32,415 nucleotides of DNA. Source: Thermoanaerobaculia bacterium. Lineage in GTDB: Bacteria; Acidobacteriota; Thermoanaerobaculia; Multivoradales; UBA5704. Below the pieces are notes generated by a model that had not been told where the DNA came from, searched no databases, and saw nothing but the letters and a program-made list of their open reading frames with translations. This document shows positions 7,113-30,100 of the stretch, piece after piece; the stretch's first letter is position 1, and every line of letters starts with the position of its first letter. The position numbers and the translations under genes are program-made. The DNA lies in contig JBJMGZ010000079.1 of NCBI GenBank assembly GCA_045807605.1, positions 1 through 32,415 of the forward strand, given 5' to 3'.

Positions 7113-7116
<4 letters not shown>
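1..7116 (-). CDS. NRPS, 3'-truncated by the window edge: C-A(Ala)-T-C-A(Ala)-T-C(partial); at least 2372 codons
   Basis: Not in the ORF track, which is consistent with no stop codon before position 1. I translated the key segments by hand. ATG at 7116 overlaps the upstream TGA (ATGA) and follows GGAAAGAGG. N-terminus MTISSLAPRQGAAPEPSGPEDGVFVFPASYAQQRLWFLDQL. C motifs HHAVADG (~6620), HHIVSDG (~3560) and HHIVSDG (~465). Two LAYLIYTSGSTGRPKGV motifs (~5240, ~2170). T motifs FFSLGGHSLL (~4125) and FFDLGGHSLL (~1045). Both A domains read FDLSVFE / (I/V)NTVPS / VNLAGE / NLYGPSEDTTY, giving code DLFNNALTYK (Ala-type). Confidence 0.95.
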
Positions 7117-13453
<6,337 letters not shown>

Positions 13454-13457
<4 letters not shown>

Positions 13458-16400
13458 GCCGGGCCTCCCTGGTCCGCCGGCCGGACGCGCCGGTGCGCCG
13501 CGCGCGAGGCGGCCTGGACGCGCGGACCCGCGGGCGTTCCGGACGCGCCGGCCTCGCGCACGGCGCGCGACAGGCCGCCGACCGTCGGCGCCTGGAACAG
13601 GCTGCGCAGCGGCAGGTCCACCGCGAGCTCCCGGCGCACCCGGGCCATCACCCGCGTGGCCAGCAGCGAGTGGCCGCCGAGGCGGAAGAAGTCGTCGTGG
13701 AGACCCACGCGCTCGAGGCCGAGCACGTCGGCCCAGATCCCGGCGAGCGTGCGCTCCTCCGGCGTCTCGGGCGGCACGAAGCCGTCGCCTCCCGCCGACA
13801 GGTCGGGCCGGGGCAGGGCCTTGCGGTCCAGCTTGCCGTTCGGCGTGCGCGGCAGGGCATCCAGCATCACCCAGGCGCCCGGGACCATGTAGGACGGCAG
13901 CCGCGCCGCGAGGTGCCCGCGCAGCTCCTCGACCTCCACGGGAGGCGCCACATAGGCAGCCAGCCGCCGGTCGCCATCAGGATTGGCGGCATCCACCGCC
14001 AGCACCGCCGCCTCGCGCACGGCGGGGTGGGCCAGGAGCGCGGCCTCGATCTCTCCGAGCTCGATGCGGAACCCGCGCAGCTTGACCTGGTGGTCGATGC
14101 GGCCCAGCAGCTCCAGGCTGCCGTCCGCACGCCGGCGGGCGAGGTCGCCGGTGCGGTAGAGCCGCTCTCCGGGACCCGAGAAGGGGTCGGGCAGGAAGCG
14201 CTCGGCGGTGAGGTCCGGCCGGTGGAGATAGCCGCGGGCCAGGCCGGCGCCGCCCAGCCAGACCTCGCCCGGGATGCCGGCCGGAACCGGGTTGCCCCAC
14301 GGGTCCAGGAGCACGGCGCGCGTGCCCGCGACCGGCCAGCCGATGGTGGCCGGCCCGCCGGGCCGCCGCAGGGCGAAGGTCGAGTAGGTCGTGTCCTCGG
14401 ACGGCCCATAGAGGTCGAAGACCCGGCCGGCCGCGGTGCGCTCGTAGATGCGGTCCACCAGGGCCGGGACCAGCGGCTCGCCCGCCAGGTTGACGGTCCG
14501 CACCGACCGCGGCACCGCCGCCAGGCGCAGCAGCTCCTCCATGGCCGAGGGCACGGTGTTGACGAGCGTGACCCGCTCCGCCGCCGGCAGGCCGGCCAGG
14601 GCGAGCGCGTCGTCGCCGAGGATCACGGCGCCGCCGCGGGAGAGCGGCAGGAAGAGCTCGAAGACCGAGAGGTCGAAGCAGACCGAGGTGGCGGCGAAGA
14701 CGCCGGCCAGGTCCTCGGCGGAAAAGACCTCCGCGGCCCAGCGCAGCAGGTCCACGGCGCTGCGGTGCTCGATCGCCACGCCCTTGGGCCGGCCGGTGGA
14801 GCCGGAGGTGTAGATGACGTAGGCAAGGTTGCCCGAGCCGGCGCCACCGTCCAGCTCCGGTCCTTCCCCGTCCAGATCCAGCAGCTCGGCAGCAGTGATC
14901 ACCCGGCGCGCGCCCGAGTCCTCCAGGAGGAAGGCCGTCCGCGCCTCCGGGTACGCTGGATCGAGCGGGACGTAGAAAGAGCCCGACCGGAGCACGGCCA
15001 GCAGCGCGGCGACCAGGTCGGGCGTGCGCTCCAGGAGGACCCCCACGGCCACCTCGGGGCCGGCGCCCGCGGCGCGCAGCCGGCGGGCGAGGCGCGCGCT
15101 CCGGGCGTCCAGCTCGCGATAGGTGACCGTCTCCGCGCCGAAGATCACGGCCGGGGCGTCGGGCGTGCGGGCTGCCTGCGCCGTGAACAGGCCGTGCAGC
15201 GTGTCCGGAGCCGAGACCGGCAGCGCCGGGCCGGCCCAGCCGCGTACGAGCTGCTCCTCCTCTGCCGGGTCCAGCATCGGCTGCCGGGAAAGACGGCGCT
15301 CCGGGTCTTCCAGCAGGCCCTGCAGGAGCCGCTCGTGATGGGCGGCGAGGCGCGCCACGGTCGCCGGATCGAAGAGGTCGCGGTCGTAGCGCCAGAGCAG
15401 GCGCAGGCCGTGCGGCCCGGCGTCGATCACTCCGATCTCCAGGTCGAAGCGCGACTCGCCGCGCCGGACCGGCACCGTCTCCGTGGCGAGGCCGGGCATC
15501 TCCAGGACGTCGGCGCCGCTCTCCTGGAGCGTGAGCATGGCCTGGAACAGGGGCGTGTGCCCCAGGTTCCGCTCCGGGGCCAGCTCCGCCACCAGCTTCT
15601 CGAACGGCAGCTCCTGGTGCGCATGGGCCGCCAGGGTGGACCGCCGCGCCGCGTCCAGCAGCCCGGCGAACCCGGGATCGCCCTCCCAGCGCAGACGCAG
15701 CGCCAGGGTGTTCACGAAGAAGCCCACGAGCGGCTCGATCTCGCTGCGGGTGCGCCCCGCGACCGGCGAGCCCAGCACCACGTCCGGCCGGCCGGCGTAG
15801 CGCGCGAACAGGGCGGCCAGGGATGCCAGGAGCCCCATGAACAGGGTCGTCCCCGACCGCCGGCCGAGCCCGCGCAGGGCTGCGGCCGTCGCGGGCGGCA
15901 GATCCCGCTCCACCTGGGCGCCGCGATAGGCCTGCACGCGCGGCCGGGGCCGGTCGAGCGGCAGCTCGAGCAGGGCCGGCGCACCGTCCAGGGCCTCGCG
16001 CCAGTGGGCGACCAGGGATGCCAGGAGCCCGCCCTGGAGCCGCTCCCGCTGCCAGACCGCGAAGTCCGCGTACTGGACCGGCAGCGCGGGCAGGGCGGCG
16101 GGCTGCTTGTACAAAACCGCCAGCTCGCGCAGGAGGAGCCCCATGGACCAGCCGTCCGCGACGATATGGTGCAGGGTGAGGGCGAAGCGGTGCTCCTCCG
16201 CGGTTTCCGCCGATAGGCGGAGCAGGAGGAGGCGCACCAGCGGCCCGCGCCGCAGATCGAACGGCCGGCGGGCCTCCTCGTGCAGCAGCCGGTCGGCCTC
16301 GGCCTGCCGCTGCGCCGCGGGCAGGTTGGAGAGGTCGGCCACCGGGAGAGCCGGCGCGAGGTCCGGGAGCACGGACTGCGCGGGCTGCCCCTCCAGCGCG

Positions 16401-19400
16401 GCGAACGTGGTGCGCAGGGCCTCATGCCGCCTGACGGCCGCCGCCATGGCCGCGGCCAGCGCGGGCACGGCGAGCGGGCCGGCCAGGCGGAAGGCCCGGG
16501 CGATGTTGTAGGCGGAGGCGCCCGGGATGAGCTGGTCGAGGAACCAGAGCCGCTCCTGGGCGAAGGACAGCGGCGCGGGCCCGGTATCGCCGGGACTGCG
16601 GGCTCGCCGCCGGATCGGCGTCGCCGCCTCGATTCGCCCGCCGCGCATCGCCTCCTCGACGGCCCGCGCGAGGCCCGCGACCGTGGGCGCTTCGAACAGG
16701 GCCGACAGCGGCACCTCGACGCCGGCCGCGTCGCGGACCCGCGACAGCAGCCGGGTGGCGATCAGGGAGTGCCCGCCGAGCTTGAAGAAGTTGTCGCGCA
16801 CGCCGACCTCGACCCCCAGGACCGCACTCCAGATGCCGGCCAGCGTCTCTTCCAGCGGCGTGCGCGCAGCCCCGCTCTCCTCGCGCGCTCCCTCGCGCCA
16901 TACCGGCTCGGGCAGAGCGCGTAGGTCCACCTTGCCGTTCGGCGTGAGCGGCAGCCCGGGCAGGACGACGAACGCCGACGGGACCATGTAGGCCGGCAGG
17001 CGGTCGGAAAGGAAGCTCTCGAATGCCCCCTCCCCCACCACGTACGCCACCAGGACCGGATCGCCGTCCCGCTCCCGCACCGCCACCGCCGCCTCGCGCA
17101 CTCCGGGGCAACCGGCGAGGACGGCCTCGATCTCGCCCAGCTCGATCCGGAACCCGCGGATCTTGACCTGGTGGTCGATCCGCCCCAGGAACTCCAGCTC
17201 GCCGCCGGACCGCCAGCGGGCAAGGTCGCCGGTGCGGTAGAGGCGGCCCCCGTCCGGGTCCGGCACGAACCGCTCGGCCGTCAGGTCCGGCCGGCCGAGA
17301 TAGCCGCGCGCCAGACCAGCGCCGCCAACGCACAGCTCGCCGGGAACGCCCGGCGGCACCCGCCGCCCGTCGCGGTCGAGCAGCCGGACCGAGAGGCCGC
17401 CGGTCGGCCGGCCGATGGACGGAGCCCCTGCCCGCCCCGGCTCCACCAGGCCGGCCGTCGTGATCACCGTGCTCTCGGTAGGCCCGTAGTGGTTGACCAG
17501 CGCGAACGGGAGCGGGCGCACCGGAGCGCGGCGCAGCCGGTCGCCGCCGGTCAGCAGAGCGCGCAGCGCGAGCCCCGCCGGCACCTCCTGCTCCGCGATC
17601 TCGACGAGCGCCTCGGCCAGAGGCGTCGGCAGGAACGCGAGCGTGATCCGCTCGGCAGCCATCCAGGCCAGCAGCCGGCGAGGATCGGAGCGCGTCTCCG
17701 CCTCCGGCACGTGCACGCTCGCGCCCGCCGCGAGATAAGGCCAGACCTCCCAGACCGACGCGTCGAAAGCCGGCCCGGCCAGCATCGTGGCCCGGTCCGC
17801 CGGAGTCACCCCATACGCCTGCGCATGCCAGTCCGCCAGGTTTGCCAGCCCACCGTGCCCGACCGCCACACCCTTGGGCCGTCCCGTCGAGCCCGAGGTA
17901 TAGATCACGTAGGCCAGGTCACCCCCCGGCCCCCTCTCCCGGGCAGGCGGGCCCGGGCGGGCTGGGAGAGGGGGCCGGGGGGCGAGGCCCAGCTCCAGCT
18001 CCACCACCGCCATCGCCGCTCCCATCTCCGTCACCAGGTCCCGATACTGCGGCCGCACCACCACCGCCCGGGCCCCCGAGTCCTCGAGCAGGAAGCGCAG
18101 GCGCTCCGCCGGGTACGACGGATCGAGCGGCAGCCAGGCCCCGCCGGCCTCCAGCGCTCCCAGGGCCGCCACCACCGCCTCGGGCGAGCGCTCGGTCAGC
18201 ACCGCCACCACCGTCTCCGGCCCCACCCCGATCTCCGCCAACCGCCCGGCCAGCGCCCGCGCCTCGGCCAGAAGGCCGGCATAGCTCAGCTCCACGCCGT
18301 TGCCGGCCAGAGCGAGCGCGTCCGGCGTGCGCTCCGCCCAGGAGGCGACCTGGAGGTGCACCGGAGCCCCGTCCGCCCGGGAGACCGGGCCGTGGCCCCA
18401 GGCCTGGAGCTGCCGGCGCTCGGCCGCGGTCAGCAACGGCAGCTCCGAGATCCTGCGCCCCGGGTCCTCCACGAACGCCGCGAGCAGCGCCTGGTAGTGG
18501 GTCCACATGCGGTCGATCGTCGCCGCCTCGAACAGGTCGCCGCTGTACTCCCAGATGAACGTCATGTCCTCGGAGGCGCCTTCCGAGCCGAAGCCGAGGC
18601 GCTGCTCGGCGCGGGGCTTGGCGACCACGTTGAGGTCCGACTTGGCCGAGCCGTTGTGGCGCTCGTAGAGCTCGCCGGCGAGGCCCGCGAAGTCGAGGTC
18701 CGGCACCGGCGAGTCGTGGAAGCTGAACAGCACCTGGAAGAGCGGGTTGCGCGACAGCTCGCGGTCCGGCTGCAGCTCCTCGACGAGCTTCTCGAAGGGG
18801 AGGTCCTGGTGCGCCTGCGCCTCCAGCATGGTGCGCCGCGCCCGCGCGGCCAGCTCGCGGAAGGTCAGGCCCCCCTCCACCGCCGTGCGCAGGACGACCG
18901 TGTTGACCACCATGCCGATCATCTCTTCCAGCTCGCGCAGCCGCCGGTTCGCGATGCCGCTGCCGAGCACGATGTCCTCCTGCCCGGTGTAGCGGTAGAG
19001 CAGGGCATAGAAGGCGGACAGCGACGTCATGAACAGCGTGACCCCTTCGCGCCGGCCGGCCGCGCGCACCCCGGCGTACAGCTCCCGCGGCAGGTCGGCC
19101 CGCAGGGCGCCGCCGCGGAAGCTGTGCGTCCTGGAGCGCGGCCGGTCCGCAGCCAGCTCGAGCACCGGCGGGCTCCCCGCCAGCCGCTCCTTCCACCAGT
19201 CGAGCTGCCGGGCGAGCGCGTCTCCCTGCAGCCACCGCCGCTGCCAGAGGACGAACTCCCGGTACTGCACCGGCGGCTCGGGCAGCGGCGACGGCCGGCC
19301 TTCCCGGATCGCCGTGTACAGCTCTTTCAATTCGCGCAGGAACACGGCCAGCGACCAGCCGTCGTGGACGAAGTGGTGCTCGACGTGCAGCAGGAGGTGG

Positions 19401-21616
19401 TCGTCCTCGTCCAGCCGCAGCAGGAGCCAGCGCAGGAGCGGCAGGCGCTCGAGGTCGAACGGCCGGCGGATGTCCGCCTGGACGATCCGCAGCGCCACGG
19501 CCTCGCGCTCGGCAGGAGGCACCGCGCGGAGATCCACGACCGGCACCACGGCCGCCCACGGCTCGTGGATCACCTGCACCGGCCCGCCGTCGACCGCCGG
19601 GAACGTGGTGCGCAGCACCTCGTGGCGGCGGACGATCTCGGTGAAGGCGGCCTCCAGGACCGGCAGCCGCAGCGGGCCGCGGAAGCGGACCGTGAACTGG
19701 AAGTTGTAGGCGTAGTTGCCCGGCGAGAGCTGGTTCAGGAACCAGACCCGCTCCTGGGTGAACGAGAGCGGGATCGGCCCGGTCCGGACCTCGCCGGAGA
19801 CCAGCGGCGGCAGCTCCTCGCCGGCACCGCCGCCTTCCTCGCGCAGGCGGTCCAGGCGCGCGGCCAGGGCGGCCACCGTGGGGTGCTCGAAGACGGCCGG
19901 CAGCGGCAGGTCCACTCCCAGCTCCTCGCGCACCCGCGTGACGATTTGCGCGGCGAGCAGCGAGTGGCCGCCCAGCTCGAACAGCGAGTCGAGCGCACCG
20001 ACTCCGTCGATGCCCAGCAGCTCGCCCCAGATCCGCGCCAGCGCCTCTTGCGTGGCGCCGCGGGGCGCCACCCAGTCGTTGTCCAGCTCCGGCCGCGAGC
20101 TGCCCGGCGCCGGCAGGGCCCGGCGGTCCACCTTGCCGGTGGGGGTCATCGGCATGGACTCCAGGAAGACGAACGCCGCCGGCACCATGGCCTCGGGCAG
20201 CCGCTCCGCGAGGAACGCGCGCAGGGCGCTCACCGTCAGGGCCGGATCGCGGCGGACGACGTAGGCGACCAGGCGCTTCGCCCCGCCGTCCTCGCGGGCC
20301 GGCAGCGCCGCGGCGACCGCCGTCTGCACGCCGTCGTGCTCGCCGAGCACGGCCTCGATCTCCCCGAGCTCGATGCGGACGCCGCGGATCTTGACCTGGA
20401 AGTCGACGCGGCCGAGGAAGAGCAGGTCGCCGTCCGGCAGCCGGCGGGCGAGGTCGCCGCTGCGGTACAGCCGGGCTCCGGGATCGACCGAGAACGGATC
20501 GGGGATGAAGCGCTCGGCGGTCAGCTCCGGCCGGTTCAGATAGCCGCGCACGACGCCGACGCCGCCCAGGCAGAGCTCGCCGTCGCCTTCGCCCGCCACC
20601 GTCTCGCCGTCCTGGTCCATCAGGTGGACGGACAGGTTCTCGATCGGGCCGCCCAGGGTGGGGATCCCAGGGCCGGAGCAGAACGCGGCGGTCGCGAAGA
20701 CCGTGGCTTCGGTGGGCGCGTAGGCGTTGATCATCCGGCGCCCTCCCGTCGACCAGCGGGCCGCCGTGGCCGCCGAGCAGGCCTCGCCGCCCACCAGGAT
20801 CGAGCGCAGGCTGGGAAGCTCGTCCTCCATCCCCGCCGGCAGCGTGTCGAGGAGCGACGGCGGCAGGATCATCGTGGTGACGGCCTGCTCGCGCAGCTCG
20901 CGCCCCAGGGCCTCGCCGGAGAGCAGCGTCTCCCGCGGCGTGACCACCAGGCTGGCGCCGCAGGTCAGGGCCGTGAAGATCTCCAGCACCGAGGCGTCGA
21001 ACCCGAGCGAGGCGAGCTGCAGCATCCGGTCGCCGGGACGGACGTCCATCAGCCGGGCGCCCTCGCGGACCACGTTCACCACGCCGCGATGCGGGACGAC
21101 CACGCCCTTGGGCCGGCCGGTCGAGCCGGAGGTGTAGATGACGTAGGCGGTGTTCTCCGGCCCGACCCGGTGGGCCGGAAGCGGGAGGCCTTCCGCGCCT
21201 TGCAGGTCCTCCAGGAACAGCGCGCCGTCGGACGGGAGCAGGCCGGCGAGCGCGCGCTGCGTGAGCAGGACCCCCGGCCGGCCCGGCAGGTTGCCGCGGC
21301 GGGCGTCCTCCCAGATCCAGGCGAGGCGCTCGGCCGGATAGCCGGGGTCGAGCGGGACGTAGGCGCCGCCCGCCCGCAGGATGCCGAGCACGCCGCAGAT
21401 CATGTCGAGCGAGCGCTCGACGGCCAGGCCGACCAGCGTGTCCGGCCCGACTCCGCGGGAGCGCAGGACCGCCGCCACCCTCCCGCTCCTCTCCAGAAGC
21501 TCGCGGCAGGTCAGGCGCGCGGCGCCGAACGCCAGGGCTTCCGCCTCCGGAGTCCGCGCCGCCCGCTCCTCGATCAGATCATGGATGCAACAGGCATCCT
21601 CCAGATTCGACGACAC
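13454..21616 (-). CDS. Starter NRPS, about 2720 aa: A-T-C(ureido-forming type)-A(Leu-like)-T-C-A(Ala)-T
   Basis: The track ORF is 13454..21646. I prefer the in-frame GTG at 21616 because GGAGG (21626-21622) lies 5 nt upstream. The protein begins directly with an A domain. First C motif EHHFVHDG, second HHIVADG. Three GGHSL T domains. A codes by eye: DALILGAVFK (unassigned hydrophobic), DAWFLGHVIK (Leu-like) and DLFNNALTYK (Ala). Confidence 0.96.
17922..17982. repeat. Palindromic REP/RPE-like element (perfect 19-bp inverted repeat, 23-nt spacer) in frame inside an NRPS A domain
   Basis: Left arm CCCCCCGGCCCCCTCTCCC (17922-17940) is the exact reverse complement of right arm GGGAGAGGGGGCCGGGGGG (17964-17982). 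It translates as APRPPLPARPGPPARERGPGG immediately before DLAYVIYTSGST. Confidence 0.8.
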
Positions 21617-21635
21617 CGTATCCTCCATTGTAAGC

Positions 21636-21676
21636 AACAAATTCAACCCGGGGACGCCGGGAGGGGGAACGCCTCC
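21636..21676 (-). terminator. Possible weak intrinsic terminator or attenuator between the selenoprotein gene and the NRPS operon
   Basis: After the TAG on the minus strand there are two short overlapping hairpins, GGAGG-CGTTCCC-CCTCC and CCCGG-CGTCC-CCGGG, followed by TTGAATTTGTT. The stems are only 5 bp and the U tract is interrupted. Confidence 0.25.
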
Positions 21677-21678
21677 GT

Positions 21679-24117
21679 CTACTCATCGCCAAGGAGCCTC
21701 CGGACCTGCTCCGCGAACACCACGCCGTTGAAACGGCGCTCCTTGGGTAGGCCCTGCTTCTCGATCCACATGAAGTAGGGCGGGACGGGTGGTTTCGGCC
21801 CCTCCCACCGGACGCCCGGCGGGAAGATCATGTACGTGTCGTAGGCAGCCTCGTCGTCCACCACGCCCAGCGCCTGCGCCCAGGTGTCCGAGAGGACGTT
21901 GTCGTCGGTCCAGAAGTGAGTCGCCCGCGCGTCCGGGATGTTGACCGTGGCCTTGCGCGCGTCGGCCCCCGTGTCCCCCACCTCCATCGGACCCCAGACG
22001 ACGTAGAGCCGCAGCCGGGGATCGTCGATCGCCTTCATCACGTAGCGGGACACCACACGGGCGTCCTGGAGGCAGACCGGTCACGTCGGGGACAGGAGAA
22101 TGACCAGGCGCAGGTTGCCCTGGTCGCGGTTGAAAAGCTCTTTCAGCTCGTCGCCCCGGCCGGCGAGGAGGTGCAGGTCGGGTTGCGCCGGCTCCGGCCG
22201 GTCCGCGCCCGCCTCGCCGATGCGCTGCAGGGCGAACTCGAAGGTCTTGCCGTCCTCGAGGAGCGTGCCCGAGATCGTGCGGCCGTCCGCCGACAGCTCG
22301 CCGTCGAAGCGGACGTCCACGGCCGCCACCGCGCCCTCGGCCGGACGGTGGATCTCGAACCCCACCTTCCGGTCTTCGCCGACCGACACCGCGCTCAGCG
22401 GCACGAACTGGAGCCCCTGCGTCGGCAGGTCGGCGTCGCCGCTCCAGCCCGCGGGGCCCCCCTGGAACAGCTCCACCATCAGCTCGACCTCCAGCCAGCC
22501 GCGCTGGATGAAGATCACCCCCTCCCACAGGCCCTCGGCGTTGCGCGCGGCAACGGCGGCGGCCGCAGGAGGAGCCGGAGCTGGAATCGGAGCTGGAAGA
22601 GGGGCCTCCGCCGGCGCGGGCTCGGGCGGCGCCGGCATGGTGAAGGCGACCTTGGGCGCCTCGGCGGCGCAGGCGACGTCCAGCCCTTCCGCCGTGCCGC
22701 GGCCCACGAAGCCGGCCAGGATCGACCGCACGCACGGCGAGCGGCCGACATGGGCGCCGCGGCGCAAGACCACGTGCCGCGAGCGGCTCAGGGTGCGCGC
22801 CGCCTGCTCGCCCCAGCGCGGCGGCGTCGCCGGATCGCGGTCGCCGGAGAGCAGGAGCACCGGCACGGCCGAGCGCACGTCCTCGGCGAACCCGGGCGGC
22901 AGCTTGGCGCGCGGCCAGGCCGAGCAGGCCCGCACCTGCTGATCCACCCGGTAGGTGCCGAGGAAGGACCCGCGGGCCAGGCGCTTCGCCTCCTCCGCGT
23001 CGATGAGCGGCACGTCCTCGGCGCAGGTGACCGAGAGGTACGTGCCGAGGCTCAGCGCGGCGCCCGAGGCGAGGGCCCGGCGCTGGCGCAGGATCGTGGC
23101 CGCCAGCTTGTTGAAGTTGCCCTCGTAGGCCTTGTGGATGTACTCGGGGATTGGGCTCGGCGCCTCGGTGTAGAGCCGCCAGCGCAGCTCCTCGTTGAAC
23201 AGGTCGAGCGGGATCGTCAGCTTGACCCGCTTCTTCGTCTTGGGGTCCGCGATCTCGACCACCGCCGGCGCCTTGGCCAGGCGCTCCTGGACCGCGGCGA
23301 GCTTCCGCTTCAGGTCGGGCCAGGCCGCGCGGCAGGCCGCGTCCGCCTCGCACTCGCCGAGCAGCAGGTCGAGCGAGCGCTGCGAGTCCTCGGCGTGGTG
23401 GAGCGGGACCGCGATGTTCGTCGGGGCGACGCCCTGGAGGACCGCGCTCCGCACCCGGTCGGGATGGCTGCGCAGATAGACCAGCGCGATCCGCGAGCCG
23501 TAGGAGACGCCGTACAGGTCGATCTTCGCGGCGCCGAGCGCCGCGCGGACCGCATCCAGGTCCTCCACGGCCTCCGCCGTCGTGTAGAGCGCGGGGTCGC
23601 TGCCGAGCTGGCGGAGCCGCGCCGCGCAGGCGCGCACGGCCTCCAGCGGCAGGAAGTCGCCGAGGTAGCCCTGCGGGTCGTCGTCGCTGCCGGGCAGCGC
23701 GCAGTCGAGCCGGTTCGAGCCGCCGGTGCCGCGCAGGTCCACGAGGACCACGTCGCGCTCGCCGCGCACCCCGCCCAGGAGCTGCGCGAAGATGGCGGCG
23801 TTGGCCACCGCCGACTCCCCCGGGCCACCCGCGACGGCGAAGACCGGATCGGGCGCGGGAGAGGTGCCGCCTGCCGGGCGCGCCGGCAGGACCGCGACGT
23901 TCAGGGAGATCCGATGACCGTCCGGACGCTGCCGATCCTCCGGCACTTCCAGCTTGCCGCAGCGGGCCTCCTCTTCCAGGCCCGGGAGCTTGCAGGGCGC
24001 GAGCGCGAGCCCCGCCGGATCGGCCGCAGCGTTCATCCCTCCCAGGAATCCCAGGAAGACCGTGGCCAGGACCATGCGACGCCTCCGGAGAGCGCCAACA
24101 GCCGATGGGAGAGCCAT
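21679..24117 (-). CDS. Predicted selenoprotein, 812 aa: signal peptide + TAP-like (peptidase S33) alpha/beta-hydrolase + Pro/Ala linker + small beta-rich domain + thioredoxin-fold domain with UxxC (Sec at TGA 22083-22081)
   Basis: Track ORFs 22081..24117 and 21679..22056 are in the same frame, separated by one TGA and 8 sense codons: ...LRLVILLSPT-TGA-PVCLQDAR-VVSRYVMK.... Hydrolase motifs: GGPG, DLRGTGGS, GVSYG (nucleophile Ser, 23497-23511), GDRDPATP (Asp) and GAHV (His). The N-terminus RRRRMVLATVFLGFLGGMNAAA resembles a signal peptide. The hydrolase call alone is very secure; the confidence given is for the readthrough fusion. Confidence 0.85.
22048..22066 (-). promoter_or_regulatory. Candidate bacterial SECIS element
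   Basis: mRNA after the UGA: 14 nt, then stem GGACGCC, loop CGUGU, stem GGUGUCC (7 bp, one G-U pair). The loop begins 21 nt after the UGA and has G in its second position followed by U. This fits the general bacterial SECIS consensus (hairpin just 3' of UGA, G among the first two loop bases). Confidence 0.7.
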
Positions 24118-24123
24118 TTACAA

Positions 24124-24154
24124 ATGCTATACTAACTTGGCCGACAAATTTCAA
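24124..24154 (-). promoter_or_regulatory. Candidate sigma70-type promoter for the selenoprotein gene, possibly giving a leaderless transcript
   Basis: On the minus strand, TTGAAA (24154-24149), a 17-nt spacer, then TATAGC (24131-24126). Alternatively TAGCAT (24129-24124) ends 6 nt before the ATG at 24117. There is no Shine-Dalgarno before this ATG. Confidence 0.35.
24125..24133 (+). promoter_or_regulatory. Candidate extended -10 promoter (TGcTATACT) for the DUF5916 gene
   Basis: TGn-TATACT in the AT-rich divergent intergenic region, about 90 nt upstream of the TTG start. Confidence 0.5.
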
Positions 24155-24222
24155 ATGCCCTGACTGCGCATCAGCAATGGCTCCGTAGTGCGTCCATTTT
24201 TCTGTTCGTAGGAGGACACCGC

Positions 24223-26508
24223 TTGCGCAACGAGAGATCCCGTGCCCGGTTCCCGCTCCTCGCAGCCGCCGCAATCGTTACCGTTGCCGCAGCCGTCGTG
24301 CCTGCCGCGGCGTCCGCCCAGGCGCCGGCCCCGGCCGGCCCGGCGGCCTTCGGTCCGAAGCAGGAGCACGCCATCCGCCCGGCAGCCTCGGAGATCCGGG
24401 TCGACGGCGTTCTCGACGAGGCGGCCTGGGCCGACGCGACCGTCGTGCCGCTCACGCGCGAGTGGTCCCCCGGGGACAACATCGAGGCGCCGGTGGCGAC
24501 CGAATGCCTGGTGACCTTCGACAACGACAACCTCTACGTCGGCTTCCGCGCGCACGACCCGAACCCGGCGCAGATCCGCGCCTACCTGGCCGACCGGGAC
24601 ACGGCCTTCCTGGACGACAGCGTCGGCTTCTTCATCGACACCTTCAACGACCGGCGGCGCGCCTACGAGTTCCGGGTCAACCCGCTGGGCGTGCAGATGG
24701 ACGGCACGGTCAGCGACGTGGAGCAGAGCGAGGACTGGTCCTGGGACGCCATCTGGGACTCCAAGGGCCAGATCACGGCCGACGGCTACGTGGTGGAGAT
24801 CGCGGTGCCCCTCAAGCAGATCCGCTTCCCGCGCGCCGGCGAGAGCCAGACCTGGGGCTTCCTCGCCCTGCGGACCTACCCGCGCTCCGTCGTCCACGAG
24901 ATCCGGTCCACCTACAACAACCGCGAGCAGGAGTGCCAGGTCTGCCAGTTCGAGACCGTCACCGGCTTCCGCAACATCCAGGCGGGCTACAACCTGGAGA
25001 CCACGCCGACGCTCACCGCCAAGCGCACGGACTCGCGGCCGGTCCTGACGGAGCCTCTCGCGAGCGGGGACGAGGAGATCGAGGCCGGCCTGTCGGTGCG
25101 CTGGGGTATCACGCCGAACGTCAGCCTGAACGCGGCGGTGAACCCCGACTTCTCGCAGGTCGAAGCGGACGTGGCGCAGCTCGACGTCAACGAGCGCTTC
25201 GCGCTCTCCTTCCCGGAGAAGCGCCCCTTCTTTCTGGAGGGGGCCGACTTCTTCGACACCCCCTACACGGCGGTCTTCACCCGCACCGTCTTCGATCCGA
25301 CGTTCGGGCTCAAGCTGACCGGCAAGGAGAAGGAGAACGTCTTCGGCGTGTTCCTCACCGAGGACCGGGTCACCAGCCTGCTCGTCCCGGGCCGCGAGAG
25401 CTCGACCCTCTTCACCCTGGACGATACGGTGCGCAGCGGCGTGGTGCGCTACCGCCGCGACCTCGGCAGCGCCTCGACCGTGGGTGTGCTCTACACCGGC
25501 CGGGAGGGCTACAGCTACTCGAACCGGAACTTCGGGTTCGACGGCAGCGTCCGGCTCGCGAAGTCCGACACCATCCGCTTCCAGGCCCTGGGCTCGCGCA
25601 CCGACTACCCGCTCGACATCGCGAAGGCCGCCGGCCAGGACGCCGACCCGTTCAGCGGCGAGGCCGTCGTGGTCGAGTACTCCCACGCCACCCGCAACTG
25701 GCTCTGGCGGGGGAGCTACAACTCGATCGACGACGACTTCCGCGCCGACAGCGGCTTCCTGCCGCAGATCGGCATCGAGGAGCTGGGCGGCCAGCTCCAG
25801 CGCACCTTCTGGGGCCGCAAGGGGGGCTGGTACAGCCGCTTCACGGTGAACCTCAACTCGAGCACCAAGAACGACAAGAGCGGCGAGCTGCTGGAGCAGG
25901 ACTTCAACCTGTTCCTGACCTACAACGGGCCGATGCAGAGCGTCGTGCGGGTGCGCCTGCTGCCGAACAACGAGAGCTTCCGGGGCAACGAGTTCTACAA
26001 CTACCGGCAGGACCTCCTGCTCTCGATCCGGCCGAGCGGCCACCTCGGGCTCTCCTTCTTCCTGCGCGGCGGCGAGATCATGGACTTCACCAACGTCCGC
26101 CAGGTGGACTTCCTCCAGATCCAGCCCTCGCTCGACTTCCGGATCGGCCGCAACATCTCCGGCAACTTCGACTACAACCACCAGGAGTTCGAGACCCGCG
26201 GCCAGCAGTACCTGAAGGCCGTGCTGACCCAGGGCACGCTGCGCTACCACCTCAACGTGCGCACCTTCGTGCGCGCCATCCTCCAGTACCGCGACGTGGA
26301 CCGGGACCTGGCGCTCTTCCGCCCCGGGATCAAGCTGGAGCCGAAGGAGCAGACCTTCTTCTCCCAGTTCCTCTTCTCCTACAAGCTGAACCCCCAGACC
26401 GTGCTGTTCGCGGGCTACTCGGACAACCACCTCGGCACCCAGGAGGTCGACCTCACGCAGAGGGACCGCACGTTCTTCGTGAAGCTGGGTTACGCCGTGC
26501 TGTGGTAG
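24223..26508 (+). CDS. Outer-membrane protein with N-terminal CBM9-like carbohydrate-binding domain and DUF5916-type beta-barrel, 761 aa
   Basis: AGGAGG (24210-24215) lies 7 nt before the TTG. Ala-rich signal peptide. Family-typical motifs IRVDGVLDEAAW, DNLYVGFRAHD, IDTFNDRRRAYEFRVNPLGVQMD and NPDFSQVEAD...FPEKRPFFLEG. The C-terminal amphipathic strand FFVKLGYAVLW ends in an aromatic residue. Strong C/G third-position bias in this frame. Confidence 0.9.
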   Translation: MRNERSRARFPLLAAAAIVTVAAAVVPAAASAQAPAPAGPAAFGPKQEHAIRPAASEIRVDGVLDEAAWADATVVPLTREWSPGDNIEAPVATECLVTFDNDNLYVGFRAHDPNPAQIRAYLADRDTAFLDDSVGFFIDTFNDRRRAYEFRVNPLGVQMDGTVSDVEQSEDWSWDAIWDSKGQITADGYVVEIAVPLKQIRFPRAGESQTWGFLALRTYPRSVVHEIRSTYNNREQECQVCQFETVTGFRNIQAGYNLETTPTLTAKRTDSRPVLTEPLASGDEEIEAGLSVRWGITPNVSLNAAVNPDFSQVEADVAQLDVNERFALSFPEKRPFFLEGADFFDTPYTAVFTRTVFDPTFGLKLTGKEKENVFGVFLTEDRVTSLLVPGRESSTLFTLDDTVRSGVVRYRRDLGSASTVGVLYTGREGYSYSNRNFGFDGSVRLAKSDTIRFQALGSRTDYPLDIAKAAGQDADPFSGEAVVVEYSHATRNWLWRGSYNSIDDDFRADSGFLPQIGIEELGGQLQRTFWGRKGGWYSRFTVNLNSSTKNDKSGELLEQDFNLFLTYNGPMQSVVRVRLLPNNESFRGNEFYNYRQDLLLSIRPSGHLGLSFFLRGGEIMDFTNVRQVDFLQIQPSLDFRIGRNISGNFDYNHQEFETRGQQYLKAVLTQGTLRYHLNVRTFVRAILQYRDVDRDLALFRPGIKLEPKEQTFFSQFLFSYKLNPQTVLFAGYSDNHLGTQEVDLTQRDRTFFVKLGYAVLW

Positions 26509-26509
26509 G

Positions 26510-27151
26510 TCACTGCTTGCCGGGCCCGAGCCGCCAGCCGAGGACCAGGCTGGCCTCGGGCCCCGAGGCGTCGTAGATCACGGTCAGGTTGTCCCCCTGG
26601 TCCACCTTGTCGTCGGAAAAGAGGTACCGGTACCGGGCTTCGGGCCGGACGAAGAGGCTCTTGCCGAGGTCCCACTCGTACGCGACGCCGGCGTGCGCCG
26701 TGAAGATGTTCCGGGTGCTGGTGTCCGAGAACGACTCGCCGAAGAGGCTGGAGGTGAAACGGGCCTCCAGCCGCGACATCCCGCCGCCGCCGAAGACCAG
26801 GAACCCGCGTTCCCGCGTCCACGGATACCACTGCGCCGAGAGGTCGAGATGAAGGATCTGGAGCTCGAACTTGAAATCCAGGGTCGGGAAATCGGGCTCG
26901 TCGTTCTCCGGCAGGGTGTCCGACAGGTCGGACCGGCTCAGGGCGGCCTCGAGGGCGAAGGAGGGGCTGAGGAGGTGGCCGGCGCGGACCCCGAACACCT
27001 GGGCGTTGTCGACCGTCTCGTCCTCCGCGGGATCGAAGGCGCCGCCCGCGACGCCGAACCACGTCTCGGCCCGCGCCGGCGCCGGGGCCATCCCCCAGGC
27101 CAGCGCCAGGGCCAACAGAGATCCCTTCACCCATTTCGGCTGTGCAAGCAT
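26510..27151 (-). CDS. Small outer-membrane beta-barrel protein (OmpA-like transmembrane / porin family), 213 aa
   Basis: AGAGGAG lies 5 nt before the ATG. Signal peptide ending APARA. Alternating amphipathic strands FGVRAGHLL, FALEAALS, FLVFGGGG, AHAGVAYEW, FVRPEARYRY and ASLVLGWRL. Confidence 0.85.
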   Translation of the reverse strand: MLAQPKWVKGSLLALALAWGMAPAPARAETWFGVAGGAFDPAEDETVDNAQVFGVRAGHLLSPSFALEAALSRSDLSDTLPENDEPDFPTLDFKFELQILHLDLSAQWYPWTRERGFLVFGGGGMSRLEARFTSSLFGESFSDTSTRNIFTAHAGVAYEWDLGKSLFVRPEARYRYLFSDDKVDQGDNLTVIYDASGPEASLVLGWRLGPGKQ

Positions 27152-27188: not shown

Positions 27189-30100
27189 TCAAACCGGCTG
27201 CGCCGTTCTCGACCGCGGCTCCGGCACCCTTCCCAGGCAGCGCCGGAGGTGCTCCGCCAGGGTGCGGACGTGCGGCGGCTCGTGCATGGTCATGTGGTCT
27301 CCCGGCACCACGTGGACGTCGGTGCCGCCCTGCATCAGCTCGATCCAGGGCAGCTCCGGCCGCGGCGGGTCGCCCGGCCGCCGGGTCTGCGCGCGGAAGT
27401 AGACCATCGCGCCCGGGTGCGGACGCGGCTGGTAGCCGTAGAGCGCGTCCACGTTCGCGGCCAGCACCCGCACCCGCCGCCGCACCTCCTCCGCGTCGAG
27501 GCCGGCGGATATTGCCTCGGTGGCCCGCCCGAGCGCCAGCTCGAGCTGCGCTTCCGGCCCGTGCTTGCGCAGCTCCTCCGGACAGAGGTCGAGCCGGCCG
27601 CGGAAGACCGCGGCCACCGCGTCGGCGTGATCCTCCCGCGCCGGCATCTGGTCCAGGCACGGGGTGTCCATCAGGGCGAGCAGGGCCGCCTCCTCTCCCA
27701 GGGCCTGGAGCTGGTGGGCCATCTCGAAGGCCACCATGCCGCCCATCGAGGCGCCGCCCAGCAGGTAGGGGCCTCGCGGCCGGACCTCGCGCACCAGCCC
27801 GAGGTAATGCCTCGCCATCTCCTCGATCGTGCGCAGCGGCTCCTCCCCCTCCTCCAGCCCGAGCGAGCGCAGCCCATAGACCGGCCGGTGCGGGCCGAGC
27901 TCGCGCGCCAGGGCGCGGAAGGTGAAGGCGTAGCCGCCCACTTGATGGACCAGGAAGACCGGCGGATGCCGGTCGGGATCGCCGGCCTGCAAGCGGACCA
28001 GACAGGTCGGCCGGACCGGCGCCGCGTCCGCGGAGGCCGCGGCCAGCCGCTTCGCCATGGCCGACACGGTCGGCGTCTCCAGCAGCAGATCGGCCGGCAG
28101 CGACATGCCGAGCGCCCGGCGCAGCCGGGAGCTCATCTGGAGGCCCAGCAGCGAGCTGCCGCCGATCTCGAAGAAGTCGTCGTGCAACCCGACCCCGTCC
28201 AGGCCGAGCAGCTCGCACCAGACCCGCGCCACGCTCTCCTCCAGCGGAGTCTGCGGGCCGGCCGCAAGCGCGGGGACCGGCTCCTCCGGCAGCGGCTCCA
28301 TCAGCTCCACCTGCGGCTCCACCCAATACCGCCGGCGCTCGAAGGGATAGGTCGGCAGCGGGATGCGCCGCCGCCGCTCGCCCGCATGGACCGCGGCCCA
28401 GTCGATCTCGGCGCCCGACAGCCAGAGCCGGCCGAGCGCGCCGAGCAGGACGTCCAGGTCCGGCCGGTCCTCCCTGGGGCGCCGGAGGGAGCGCAGGACC
28501 AGGTCGGCGGACCTGCCGGCGAACGTGCCGAGCGTGGCGCCGGGGCCGACCTCCAGCAGCGCGGTTCTCCGGCGGCCATCGGGGGGGCCGAGCAGCGTCG
28601 CCAGGCCGTCGGCGAAACGGACGGTGCCGCGCAGGTGCCCCGTCCAGTAGGCCGGGTCGGTGGCCTCGTCCGCGGTGATCCAGGTGCCGGTCCGGTTGGA
28701 GACGAACGGGATGCGCGGCGGACGCATGCCGATCCCCTTCAGCAGCTCGGCGAAGGGCTCGAGGACCGGGTCCATCAGGGCCGAGTGGAAGGCGTGCGAG
28801 GTATGGAGCCGCCGGCAGTCCACGTCTTCTCCCAGGCGCTCGCGGAAGGCGCGGACGTCCTCCTCCATCCCCGAGACCACGCAGGCGGCCGGGCCGTTGA
28901 CCGCGGCGAGCGCGAGCGGACCGCCCCGATCCTCCAGGAGGCGGGCGACCTCCGCCTCGGGCAGCGGCACGGCGAGCATGGCGCCGGGCGGCTGCTCCTG
29001 CATGAGCCGGCCGCGGGCGGCGACGAGGCGCAGGGCGTCCTCCAGGGAGAAGACCCCGGCCAGGCAGGCGGCCACGTACTCGCCCACCGAGTGGCCCAGC
29101 AGCGCCTCGGGCCGCACGCCCCAGGACATCCACAGCCGCGCCAGCGCGTGCTCGACCGCGAACAGGGCCGGCTGCGCCAGGGCCGTTTCGTCGAGGCCCG
29201 CGCCCGCGGCATACAGCGCCTCCCGCAGGTCCATCCCCAGCTCCGGCCGCAGGATCTCGCAGGCCTCGTCCAGCGCTTCGCGGAAGACCGGCTCCAAGGC
29301 GTACAGCTCCTCCGCCATGCCGCAATGCTGCGCGCCCTGGCCCGGAAAGAGGAAGGCGACCGCGAGCGGGTCGGGGGAGGTGGTCCGGCTCCATACCCGG
29401 GCCGGGTCCGAGGAGCGCAAGAGGTCCACGGCCTCCGCCCGGCCGCGGCAGACCAGCGCGCGGCGGCAGCGCAGGGCCTTGCGGCCGGCCTGGAGGGTCC
29501 AGGAGGCGTCGGCCAGGTCCGCGTCGGCCAGCGCCTCCAGGTGCCGGGCGAGGTTGGCGGTGGCGGCCTCCAGGGCGGACGGCGTGGCCGCCGAGAGCAC
29601 GAGGAGCTGCGCGGGACGGTCCGTGCGGGCGGGAGCGGGCGCGCAAGGCGCCTCTTCCAGCACCACGTGGGCGTTGGTCCCGCCGATCCCGAACGAGCTG
29701 ACGCCGGCCCGCCGCGGGCCGCAGGTCTTCCACCCGGTCAGGCCGGCGGCGACGTAGAAGGGGCTCCCCGCAAAGTCGATCGCCGGGTTGGGCGTTTCGA
29801 AATGCAGGCTCGGCGGGATCTCTCCATGCTTCAGGGCGAGCACGGTCTTGAGCAGGCCGGCGATGCCGGCCGCGGCGTCGGTATGCCCGAGGTTCGACTT
29901 GACGGAGCCGAGACCGCAGAAGCCGGTCCTGCGCGCTCCGCCGGCGCGGAACGCCTCGGTCAGGCCGGCGATTTCAACAGGATCGCCCAGGGGCGTGCCG
30001 GTGCCGTGCGCCTCGACGTAGCCGATCGTCTCCGGGTCGACCCCGGCGGCGAGGTGGGCCTTGCGGATGACCCGCGCCTGCCCTTCGACGGCCGGAGCCG

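What the first reader, a model, noticed from the sequence alone, without database searches (positions are those of the whole stretch)
21679..24117. Hidden selenoprotein: exported peptidase fused through an in-frame UGA to a UxxC thioredoxin-fold domain, between two NRPS loci
Seen: the 678-aa hydrolase ORF ends at LRLVILLSPT-TGA, and the same frame continues CCG GTC TGC (PVC) into the 125-aa ORF, which has no SD of its own. This gives a hydrophobic beta-strand, then SPT-U-P-V-C, then a helix-like stretch and a second hydrophobic strand (LRLYVVW). Known: a strand followed by CxxC/UxxC is the thioredoxin-fold active-site arrangement, and UxxC is a common selenoprotein motif. Inference: one 812-aa protein with U679 and C682 that standard gene callers would split in two. 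I know of no described fusion of a TAP-like S33 hydrolase with a Sec-thioredoxin domain, nor of one associated with an NRPS cluster, but I cannot run a search to confirm novelty.
Basis: partly seen in the sequence, partly recalled or inferred. Interest (0 to 1): 0.92.

Follow-up and report, generated by a model that had tools for sequence, protein, structure and literature searches.

The report
Hidden selenoprotein: exported hydrolase–thioredoxin fusion
A soil bacterium's gene that annotators cut in two at a TGA codon most likely encodes one 812-residue exported enzyme, a serine hydrolase joined to a thioredoxin-like domain with selenocysteine in its active site, from a widespread protein family that no database has yet named.

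Summary
On the minus strand, a 678-codon ORF (24117..22084) ends at TGA (22083..22081). The same frame runs on for 133 codons to TAG (21681..21679), giving LRLVILLSPT-U-PVC.

- In one search, 9 of 31 homologues carry Cys at the TGA column. The other 22, the window's own included, stop exactly at ...LSPT.
- Five independent relatives' DNA has TGA there and one has TGT.
- The codons after the TGA are under stronger purifying selection than those before it.
- The host MAG encodes selA, selB, tRNA-Sec(TCA) and a selD that itself contains UGA.
- A 7-bp hairpin 21 nt after the UGA fits the bacterial SECIS model. That fit is weak evidence alone: 23% of control codons fit the model and 9.6% have a hairpin as stable.
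- An AlphaFold model (pLDDT 94.9) puts U679 at the N-terminus of helix 1 of a TlpA/DsbE/ResA-like thioredoxin fold, after an 8-strand beta-barrel.
- No Pfam or NCBIfam model recognises the barrel+thioredoxin module, yet it has 1096 representative relatives.
- The module is also fused to an amidohydrolase and to an S9 peptidase, and it recurs beside NRPS genes.

It is a new selenoprotein family or architecture of a known kind (thioredoxin-fold UxxC). Its function is inferred, not shown.

The parts
21679..24117 (-). Whole gene: 812 codons including UGA679, plus the TAG stop (21681..21679)
   Evidence: full-length Cys homologues of 789-808 aa
24022..24117 (-). Likely signal peptide (residues 1 to about 32: RRRR, hydrophobic MVLATVFLGFLGG, then AAA). 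Read from the sequence only; no predictor was run
   Evidence: sequence. All stand-alone relatives begin with a similar hydrophobic leader
22618..24000 (-). TAP-like S33 alpha/beta hydrolase domain (residues about 40-500). Triad Ser205 (23505..23503), Asp428 (22836..22834), His456 (22752..22750)
   Evidence: Pfam PF00561 and PF08386 above their cut-offs. S205, D428 and H456 are invariant in 29 aligned homologues, and C139, C164, C365 and C398 are invariant with six more Cys at 90% or more
22531..22638 (-). Pro/Ala-rich linker (residues about 494-529)
   Evidence: sequence
22225..22527 (-). Eight-strand antiparallel beta-barrel domain (residues 531-631)
   Evidence: AlphaFold models. Only weak calycin/FABP-like fold matches. 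The same domain precedes S12, S9, S15 and S33 hydrolases in other genomes
21688..22176 (-). Thioredoxin-fold domain (residues 648-810) with the redox motif U679-P-V-C682
   Evidence: model pLDDT 94.9, pTM 0.91. Foldseek matches to DsbE 1lu4, CcmG 1kng, ResA 2f9s, TlpA, GPx and AhpC, probability about 1.0
22081..22083 (-). UGA read as selenocysteine (U679). The partner Cys682 codon is 22074..22072
22048..22066 (-). SECIS-like hairpin GGACGCC-CGUGU-GGUGUCC: 7 bp, 5-nt loop with G at position 2, loop 21 nt after the UGA, -10.2 kcal/mol
13457..21646 (-). NRPS gene (A-T-C modules) whose listed start lies 32 nt downstream of the stop, same strand. This linkage is conserved in relatives

Best explanation
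SHOWN BY COMPARISON. One gene encodes an 812-residue selenoprotein. UGA679 is decoded as selenocysteine by the host's SelB/tRNA-Sec system, helped by a hairpin that starts 14 nt after the UGA.

ARCHITECTURE. The protein has a signal peptide and a TAP-like S33 serine hydrolase domain (Ser205-Asp428-His456). A Pro/Ala linker then leads to an 8-strand beta-barrel and a TlpA/DsbE-like thioredoxin-fold domain. The redox centre of that last domain is U679-x-x-C682.

INFERRED. The protein is exported. The barrel+thioredoxin module carries out thiol-disulfide (selenylsulfide) exchange on a peptide-like substrate, which the attached hydrolase then cleaves.

MORE WEAKLY INFERRED. The substrate may be the product or a precursor of the adjacent NRPS. 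The gene sits at the head of an NRPS operon in all close relatives, and the module recurs beside NRPS genes. I put this last step at about one in three.
For: 1. FRAME. The frame is continuous through a single TGA.

2. CYS/SEC PAIRS. Of 31 proteins found with residues 530-812, 9 span the site with Cys and 22 end at ...LSPT. Among the 149 newly listed representatives, 86 have CxxC at the site and 13 end right at it. Other short hits start just after it, at query positions 152-160.

3. RELATIVES' DNA. L054/L059, L055, L056, L057 and L060 have TGA in that column. L058 has TGT.

4. SELECTION. In 4 of 4 Sec-form comparisons, dN/dS for the 133 codons after the TGA is 0.12-0.24, against 0.35-0.63 for the 133 codons before it.

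5. SEC MACHINERY. selD scores 338 bits and has its own in-frame TGA. selB scores 351 bits, selA 441 bits and tRNA-Sec 72.7 bits with anticodon TCA. selA is found in 199 of 201 sampled genomes of the class.

6. HAIRPIN. It meets all four constraints of the bSECIS model quoted in PMC13188914 (Fig. 2 legend passage; measured). It is kept in 8 relatives, with 89% of cells paired and an AU-to-GC compensatory change in 3 of 8. The host's own selD has a similar 5-bp hairpin with a CGGGG loop.

7. FOLD. U679 lies between strand 139-145 and helix 150-165 of the module model. Fold matches are to periplasmic thioredoxin-like oxidoreductases.

8. HYDROLASE LINK. The module is also fused to an amidohydrolase (own contig C419), an S9 prolyl oligopeptidase (P0030) and another TAP-like hydrolase (P0032). 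The barrel alone is fused to S12, S9, S15 and S33 hydrolases.

9. NRPS LINK. Synteny with the downstream NRPS holds in 6 of 6 close loci. NRPS genes lie next to the full module in 4 of 9 loci examined.
Against: - No experiment shows selenium in the protein.
- The hairpin alone is weak evidence. 23% of 7881 control codons in this GC-rich window are followed by a hairpin meeting the bSECIS model, and 9.6% by one as stable as the observed one.
- In a 44-nt or 86-nt context the fold is no better than shuffles.
- Folding energy after the codon does not separate 17 Sec forms from 10 Cys forms (p = 0.09).
- One Cys form (L021) keeps the same 5-bp stem.
- Covariation rests on 8 related sequences per set.
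- Export is read from the sequence only.
- The NRPS link may partly be chance or shared descent. These genomes are very NRPS-rich: at least 88 condensation domains in each of G000, G041 and G065.
- 5 of 9 full-module loci and 0 of 12 thioredoxin-only loci show no NRPS next to the module. One of the five (L065) has only a weak 26%-identity adenylation-like match 5 kb away, which I counted as none.
- A weak terminator-like site lies between the gene and the NRPS.
- The RNA-library contigs do not bridge the UGA.
Confidence: 0.85

Rival explanations
1. The TGA is a true stop. Either the gene is a recent nonsense pseudogene, or there are two separate genes: a 678-aa hydrolase and a small downstream ORF.
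For: Gene callers and public annotation treat it this way. 22 of 31 database proteins end at ...LSPT, and three are named 'alpha/beta hydrolase' by their source. An AGGA lies 9-6 nt before the internal GTG at 22056.
Against: - The TGA is kept at the same column in 5 further relatives at 41-91% module identity, and in more distant family members.
- The downstream codons are under stronger purifying selection than the upstream ones.
- A stop there would cut the thioredoxin fold between strand 1 and helix 1 and remove the first redox residue.
- Cys homologues are continuous through the site.
Confidence: 0.04
2. Both products are made. UGA679 works as a selenium-dependent switch. With selenium the full enzyme is made. 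Without it, a 678-residue hydrolase+barrel lacking the redox domain is released.
For: From general knowledge, not tested here: bacterial Sec insertion competes with release factor 2 and is often inefficient. The truncated product would still contain a complete hydrolase and barrel.
Against: Nothing here measures efficiency. The truncated form would end with an orphan beta-strand of the thioredoxin domain. This does not exclude the main reading.
Confidence: 0.15
3. It is a real selenoprotein, but the NRPS neighbourhood is incidental. The enzyme is a general extracytoplasmic scavenger that reduces disulfide-bonded peptides and degrades them. Alternatively, the thioredoxin domain only helps fold the Cys-rich hydrolase domain.
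For: - Most relatives are stand-alone barrel+thioredoxin proteins of about 300-350 aa.
- The module and the barrel join at least four unrelated hydrolase classes.
- 5 of 9 full-module loci have no NRPS nearby, and the genomes are NRPS-rich.
- The hydrolase part has 4 invariant Cys and 6 more conserved at 90% or more.
Against: Immediate same-strand adjacency to an NRPS recurs in 4 loci whose modules are only 32-46% identical. One of these lies in the middle of an NRPS gene row (G041:C132).
Confidence: 0.45
4. UGA679 is read by something other than Sec: near-cognate read-through (Trp/Cys) or a reassigned TGA codon.
For: None specific. The frame is also open under any code that reads TGA.
Against: The complete Sec machinery is present. 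The site pairs with Cys in a CxxC redox motif, the classic Sec position. Only single TGAs at this one column are seen in family members.
Confidence: 0.03

Closest known systems
TlpA/ResA/CcmG(DsbE)-like extracytoplasmic thioredoxin-fold oxidoreductases, including the 'thiol-disulfide isomerase-like' UxxC selenoproteins (cd02966) listed in PMC13188914
   Same: Predicted thioredoxin fold with the redox pair at the N-terminus of helix 1. The best fold matches are Mtb DsbE 1lu4, CcmG 1kng and ResA 2f9s. It has the UxxC motif and a likely exported location.
   Different: No sequence-level membership. No Pfam thioredoxin, Redoxin or AhpC-TSA hit was found for the window protein (E up to 1) or for 67 relatives (E up to 0.1). 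Only 1 of 67 weakly touches NCBIfam DsbE (E 0.0021). The PDB profile search found nothing better than E 0.15. The domain is always preceded by an 8-strand barrel in this subfamily, and here it is fused to a hydrolase.
TAP-like (Streptomyces tripeptidyl aminopeptidase type) S33 alpha/beta hydrolases
   Same: PF00561 and PF08386 score above their cut-offs. The Ser-Asp-His triad is invariant. The protein has a signal-like N-terminus.
   Different: It carries about 280 extra C-terminal residues (barrel + Sec-thioredoxin domain). I found no description of such a fusion.
Known Trx-fold UxxC selenoproteins (thioredoxin, glutaredoxin, Prx-like, DsbA-like, DsbG-like, Redoxin family)
   Same: Same logic: Sec replaces the N-terminal Cys of CxxC, Cys-form homologues are common, and the SECIS lies inside the coding region just after the UGA.
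   Different: None of their Pfam or NCBIfam models hits this protein. The multidomain hydrolase architecture and the NRPS neighbourhood are not in the review's table of 119 families.

Membership tests
Bacterial selenoprotein (UGA decoded as Sec) | In-frame UGA with conserved, selected coding sequence on both sides | tested here: met
   dN/dS after the UGA is 0.12-0.24 in 4 of 4 Sec-form comparisons
Bacterial selenoprotein (UGA decoded as Sec) | Homologues with Cys aligned to the UGA | tested here: met
   9 of 31 hits. 86 of 149 representatives have CxxC at the site
Bacterial selenoprotein (UGA decoded as Sec) | bSECIS hairpin as quoted in PMC13188914: loop 3-9 nt, stem 4-16 bp, G in the first two loop positions, 16-37 nt from the UGA, MFE no higher than -7.5 | tested here: met
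   Loop 5 nt (CGUGU), stem 7 bp, spacing 21 nt, -10.2 kcal/mol. The test has low specificity: 23% of 7881 control codons pass it. Conservation and covariation are modest
Bacterial selenoprotein (UGA decoded as Sec) | Host encodes selA, selB, selC and selD | tested here: met
   all are above the curated cut-offs
Bacterial selenoprotein (UGA decoded as Sec) | Selenium demonstrated in the protein | not testable with these tools
   Needs 75Se labelling or mass spectrometry
Thioredoxin-fold TlpA/DsbE/ResA-like oxidoreductase | Thioredoxin fold with CxxC/UxxC at the start of helix 1, after strand 1 | tested here: met
   Prediction only: (probability about 1.0; TM normalised to target 0.55-0.65)
Thioredoxin-fold TlpA/DsbE/ResA-like oxidoreductase | Match to the family's sequence models (Pfam Redoxin, AhpC-TSA, Thioredoxin_x; NCBIfam DsbE) | tested here: not met
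   In one search, 1 of 67 matched at E 0.0021, below any cut-off. CDD cd02966 could not be run
Thioredoxin-fold TlpA/DsbE/ResA-like oxidoreductase | Conserved cis-proline loop facing the active site | not tested
   No coordinates are returned by the tools. A Pro is common in relatives two residues before the W/Y of the 'AWD' motif, but it is Ala in the window protein
TAP-like S33 alpha/beta hydrolase | Pfam PF00561 + PF08386 above gathering scores, and a Ser-Asp-His triad | tested here: met
Selenoprotein families catalogued up to 2026 (PMC13188914, Table 1) | Hit to one of the listed NCBIfam or Pfam models at the Sec-bearing domain | tested here: not met
   No NCBIfam or Pfam hit on residues 530-812. 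I read the table. Families defined only by CDD ids could not be tested

The most novel reading that the evidence does not exclude
The barrel+Sec-thioredoxin module is a dedicated extracytoplasmic tailoring, activation or self-protection device for nonribosomal peptides. It does selenium-based disulfide chemistry on the secreted product while the fused hydrolase trims it. That would make it the first selenoenzyme tied to NRPS secondary metabolism. It would also define a new, widespread accessory module (1096 representative relatives) that couples redox chemistry to at least three unrelated hydrolase classes.
Probability: 0.3. Interest if true: 0.8.

Novelty: new variant of a known kind. Interest (0 to 1): 0.66.

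Why it matters
- ANNOTATION. Public annotation truncates this protein and its Sec-form relatives at the UGA. 22 of 31 database entries end at ...LSPT, so a redox domain is invisible in every one of them.
- NEW FAMILY. Recognising it adds a selenoprotein family with no Pfam or NCBIfam model to the roughly 119 catalogued families.
- NEW ARCHITECTURE. It shows Sec in an exported multidomain hydrolase.
- TESTABLE LINK. It gives a concrete hypothesis linking selenium to natural-product (NRPS) biology in soil Acidobacteriota. MAG record titles of relatives read Thermoanaerobaculia or Holophagales.
- TOOL BUILDING. The Cys/Sec pairs and the two SECIS types found here could seed a family model for genome annotation.

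Tried and rejected
- FOLDING ENERGY AS A TEST. Whole-region folds around the UGA are no more stable than shuffles. Folding energy of 48 nt after the codon did not separate Sec from Cys forms (p = 0.09). I therefore dropped energy as evidence and used position, conservation and a base-rate control instead.
- RFAM. A scan of 21600-22300 gave only chance-level hits.
- PROMOTERS AND TERMINATORS. The scan found no promoter and one terminator-like site at chance level.
- BETA-BARREL FOLD. The fold search gave only weak calycin/FABP-like matches (E at least 0.06, TM about 0.4). These included the N-terminal barrel of the pyoverdine enzyme PvdP at rank 10. This is too weak to name a family.
- PDB SEQUENCE PROFILE. 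The search found nothing significant.
- SELA AS A DISCRIMINATOR. selA is in 199 of 201 genomes of the class, so it cannot separate Sec from Cys lineages.
- NEIGHBOUR GENES OF DISTANT THIOREDOXIN-ONLY MEMBERS. I abandoned this because spurious high-GC ORFs made the ORF lists unreadable.
- RNA EVIDENCE. An RNA-library run (X15) gave two contigs, on either side of the UGA but not across it. The tool warns that DNA can be present in such libraries, so I claim no expression. Parts of the gene without cover in runs X5 and X15 say nothing.
- NOT SEEN. Supplementary files of the papers were closed. The selenoprotein lists in supplements of the cited surveys could contain this family without my seeing it.
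- NOT DONE. A-domain substrate prediction, SignalP/TatP and CDD cd02966 were not available.
Full report
OBSERVATION. The feature lies on the minus strand. A 678-codon ORF starts at ATG 24117 and ends at TGA 22083..22081. The same frame continues CCG-GTC-TGC and runs 133 more codons to TAG 21681..21679. Read through, it gives 812 residues with U679 and C682 in the context LRLVILLSPT-U-PVCLQD. Pfam confirms the N-terminal part as a TAP-like alpha/beta hydrolase, with PF00561 over residues 92-239 and PF08386 over 385-483. Neither Pfam nor NCBIfam sees anything in residues 530-812.

NEIGHBOURS. An NRPS gene whose listed start is 32 nt downstream on the same strand spans 21646..13457, and a second NRPS ORF spans 13344..1. 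A divergently oriented CBM9/DUF5916 gene lies at 24223..26505, and an outer-membrane beta-barrel ORF at 27151..26513. An NRPS-PKS ending in a thioesterase lies at 32414..27192.

IS THE TGA REAL? Contigs of two sequencing runs from two studies bridge 22081-22083 with no differing letter there; one of them may be the window's own source. More tellingly, five relatives' loci carry TGA at exactly this codon. These are L056 and L057 (91% and 88% module identity), L054/L059 and L060 (78%), and L055 (41%). One relative, L058 (79%), carries TGT.

CYS/SEC PAIRS. A search with residues 530-812, restricted to proteins of 446-1421 aa, returned 31 proteins. Nine run through the site and have Cys there: LSPTCPVC in seven, SPDCPIC in P0030 and SPTCPKC in P0032. 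The other twenty-two, the window's own call included, end exactly at ...LSPT. An exhaustive phmmer search with the 282-residue C-terminal module found 1096 representative proteins at E no higher than 1e-3, and 62 at no higher than 1e-30. Most are stand-alone proteins of about 300-350 aa. Of the 149 newly listed, 86 have CxxC at the site and 13 end right at it. Other short hits begin shortly after it, at query positions 152-160. That pattern is what gene callers produce when they split Sec forms.

SELECTION. Against four Sec-form relatives, dN/dS for the 133 codons after the TGA is 0.12-0.24. For the 133 codons before it, dN/dS is 0.35-0.63. The tail is therefore translated and constrained, which argues against a pseudogene.

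SEC MACHINERY. The host assembly is a MAG of 844 contigs, 79% complete. It has selD (338 bits, itself with one in-frame TGA at GG-U-AAK) and selB (351 bits). It also has selA (441 bits) and tRNA-Sec (72.7 bits, anticodon TCA). selA is present in 199 of 201 sampled genomes of the class. Sec use is thus the norm in this lineage, and selA cannot discriminate Sec from Cys lineages.

SECIS. Fourteen nt after the UGA lies GGACGCC-CGUGU-GGUGUCC (22066..22048), with 7 bp, a 5-nt loop and -10.2 kcal/mol. It satisfies the four constraints of the bacterial SECIS model as quoted in PMC13188914 (passage of the Fig. 2 legend). Those constraints are a loop of 3-9 nt, a stem of 4-16 bp, G in the first two loop positions and 16-37 nt spacing (21 here), with MFE no higher than -7.5.

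I tested how specific that is. Among 7881 other codons of the minus-strand genes of this window, 23% are followed by a hairpin passing the model. 9.6% are followed by one as stable as the observed hairpin. The hairpin alone is therefore weak evidence.

It gains some weight from conservation. In 8 Sec-form relatives the same columns pair in 89% of cells, against 32-64% for slid registers. One pair switches AU to GC in 3 of 8, and one switches G-U to A-U in 1 of 8. A second, thioredoxin-only branch of the family has a different hairpin, CUGCGGGG-GGY-CUCCGCAG, starting 9 nt after the UGA. In that branch 97% of cells pair, and two pairs show compensatory changes. There the rare Leu codon CTT co-varies with GAA, and CTG with GCA. 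The host's own selD hairpin (AGGUC-CGGGG-GACCU) has a similar loop.

Three results run against over-reading this. Folding energy does not separate 17 Sec from 10 Cys forms (p = 0.09). One Cys form (L021) keeps the 5-bp stem. All the sets are small and related.

STRUCTURE. With a 67-sequence alignment, AlphaFold2 models residues 531-812 at pLDDT 94.9 and pTM 0.91. Module residues 1-101 form eight antiparallel strands. Residues 118-280 form a beta-alpha-beta thioredoxin-type domain. U (module residue 149) sits between strand 139-145 and helix 150-165, the canonical CxxC position.

Foldseek against the PDB returns secreted or periplasmic thioredoxin-like oxidoreductases at probability about 1.0: M. 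tuberculosis DsbE 1lu4, CcmG 1kng, ResA 2f9s and TlpA, followed by GPx and AhpC. At sequence level the relationship is invisible. No Pfam hit was found in 67 members. One weak DsbE hit (E 0.0021) appeared in 67 against NCBIfam. The best PDB profile hit has E 0.15.

The barrel modelled alone (pLDDT 91.3) gives only weak calycin/FABP-like matches. In the alignment some relatives have lost the CxxC, as is usual in thioredoxin-fold families.

HYDROLASE. Ser205 (in GVSYG), Asp428 and His456 are invariant in 29 homologues. Ten Cys in this part are conserved, four of them invariant and six at 90% or more, which fits an exported, disulfide-bonded protein. The N-terminus (RRRR, a hydrophobic stretch, then AAA) looks like a signal peptide. 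This is read from the sequence, not predicted by a tool.

FAMILY CONTEXT. The host has two more Sec-containing paralogues. On contig C419 an amidohydrolase (PF01979) is fused to the same barrel+thioredoxin module, which is 46% identical and reads SPT-U-GVC. On contig C1 there is a short, lipoprotein-like, thioredoxin-only form reading APT-U-GGC. Elsewhere the module follows an S9 prolyl oligopeptidase (P0030) and another TAP-like hydrolase with DUF3471 (P0032). The barrel alone, placed right after a signal peptide, precedes S12 beta-lactamase-like + DUF3471 proteins in 3 of 5 proteins examined. It precedes S9/S15/S33-type hydrolases in the other 2 of 5. The barrel is thus an accessory domain of exported hydrolases, and barrel+thioredoxin is a unit that is either free or tethered to a hydrolase.

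NRPS LINK. In 6 of 6 close loci the gene is followed at once by the orthologous NRPS. In the 5 loci whose contig reaches that far, it is preceded by the divergent CBM9 gene. This is expected from shared descent. Less trivially, NRPS genes also lie next to the full module at own contig C419, at G189:C12 and at G041:C132. At G041:C132 the stand-alone module sits in the middle of an A-C-A-C row. These modules are only 32-46% identical to the window's. That makes 4 of 9 full-module loci examined. One of the five without an adjacent NRPS (L065) has only a weak 26%-identity adenylation-like match 5 kb away, which I counted as none, and one contig (L061) ends 150 nt after the module. 0 of 12 thioredoxin-only loci have an NRPS within about 8 kb.

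The caution is strong. These genomes are packed with NRPS genes. At least 88 condensation domains were scored in each of G000, G041 and G065, 46 in G189 and 9 in G097. G065 is the richest, yet neither of its two full modules is near one. The NRPS C domains beside the modules are 51-55% identical in two of the loci (L062, L077), so the cassettes may share ancestry. I treat the link as a hypothesis at about one in three.

MECHANISM. I commit to the following.
- Shown by comparison: UGA679 is decoded as Sec.
- Inferred from fold and motif: U679/C682 carry out thiol-disulfide exchange through a selenylsulfide.
- Inferred from the signal-like N-terminus, the conserved Cys and the fold relatives: the protein acts outside the cytoplasm.
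- Inferred from the repeated fusions: redox action and hydrolysis bear on the same peptide-like substrate, which the barrel may help to hold.
- Open: whether that substrate is the neighbouring NRPS product.

COMPARISON WITH WHAT IS KNOWN. The kind is well known: a thioredoxin-fold selenoprotein with UxxC, Cys homologues and an intragenic SECIS. I read Table 1 of the 2026 review PMC13188914 (section 7, parts 1-2), which lists 119 families. [quoted passage not shown] The Pfam models do not hit this protein, and cd02966 could not be run. The words 'hydrolase' and 'peptidase' do not occur in that review's main text.

Passages found in the Sargasso Sea survey (PMC1088965) and in deep-Sep (PMC12013277) show no such fusion. 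Three full-text searches listed no paper describing a hydrolase-thioredoxin selenoprotein or a selenoprotein in an NRPS cluster. I did not see supplementary tables. Public annotation truncates the Sec forms.

VERDICT. It is a new, unmodelled selenoprotein family and architecture within a known kind, so I rate it 'new variant of a known kind'. Interest is moderate to high. New bacterial selenoprotein families are still reported regularly. The distinctive points here are the exported multidomain hydrolase context, the breadth of the barrel+thioredoxin family, three Sec paralogues in one genome, and the possible NRPS link.

Noticed in passing
G000 contig C419 (L049:1947-4373, +): A second hidden selenoprotein in the same genome. 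An exported amidohydrolase (PF01979/PF07969) is fused to the same barrel+thioredoxin module, reads SPT-U-GVC, and is followed at once by an NRPS (A-C-A-C).
   Followed up: partly
G000 contig C1 (L050, minus strand, TGA at L050:1220..1218): A third Sec paralogue: a short, lipoprotein-like, thioredoxin-only protein reading APT-U-GGC. It has a different SECIS type (stem UUCGGGG/CCUCCGAA, loop GGC).
   Followed up: partly
G000 contig C491 (L001, TGA at about L001:1531): The host's selD is itself a selenoprotein (GG-U-AAK). It has a 5-bp hairpin with a CGGGG loop 11 nt after the UGA.
   Followed up: partly
G059:C62 (L024/L067) and G195:C17 (L069): A Cys-form and a Sec-form thioredoxin-only paralogue lie 1.2-1.9 kb apart on the same strand in two genomes.
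   Followed up: no
alignment A1: Several stand-alone family members have lost one or both redox residues, for example SPTSVPG and SPGQHGS. The family therefore includes members with no redox pair.
   Followed up: no
L031, L035, L045, L032, L044: The 8-strand barrel alone, right after a signal peptide, precedes S12 beta-lactamase-like + DUF3471 proteins (3 of 5 examined). It precedes S9/S15/S33-type hydrolases in the other 2 of 5. It looks like an unnamed accessory domain of exported hydrolases.
   Followed up: partly
window 24223-26505 (+) and 26513-27151 (-): A CBM9/DUF5916 protein is encoded divergently from the selenoprotein gene. This arrangement is conserved in 5 relatives' loci. An outer-membrane beta-barrel ORF (PF13505) lies next to it.
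   Followed up: partly
G000, G041, G065 whole genomes: These genomes are extraordinarily rich in NRPS. At least 88 condensation domains were scored in each (100-173 candidates). One open frame in G189 is 18228 aa long.
   Followed up: no
window 24118-24160 (minus strand, upstream of the ATG): By eye, TTGAAA-17 nt-TATAGC ends about 9 nt before ATG 24117, which would imply a very short leader. The promoter scan did not list it. A GGAGG lies 6 nt before the in-frame ATG at codon 15, which the database gene call uses as its start, but that Met is not conserved in relatives.
   Followed up: no
protein P0114: A 598-aa representative matches only the part after the Sec site, at its own residues 2-123. 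This may be a downstream fragment joined to something else.
   Followed up: no
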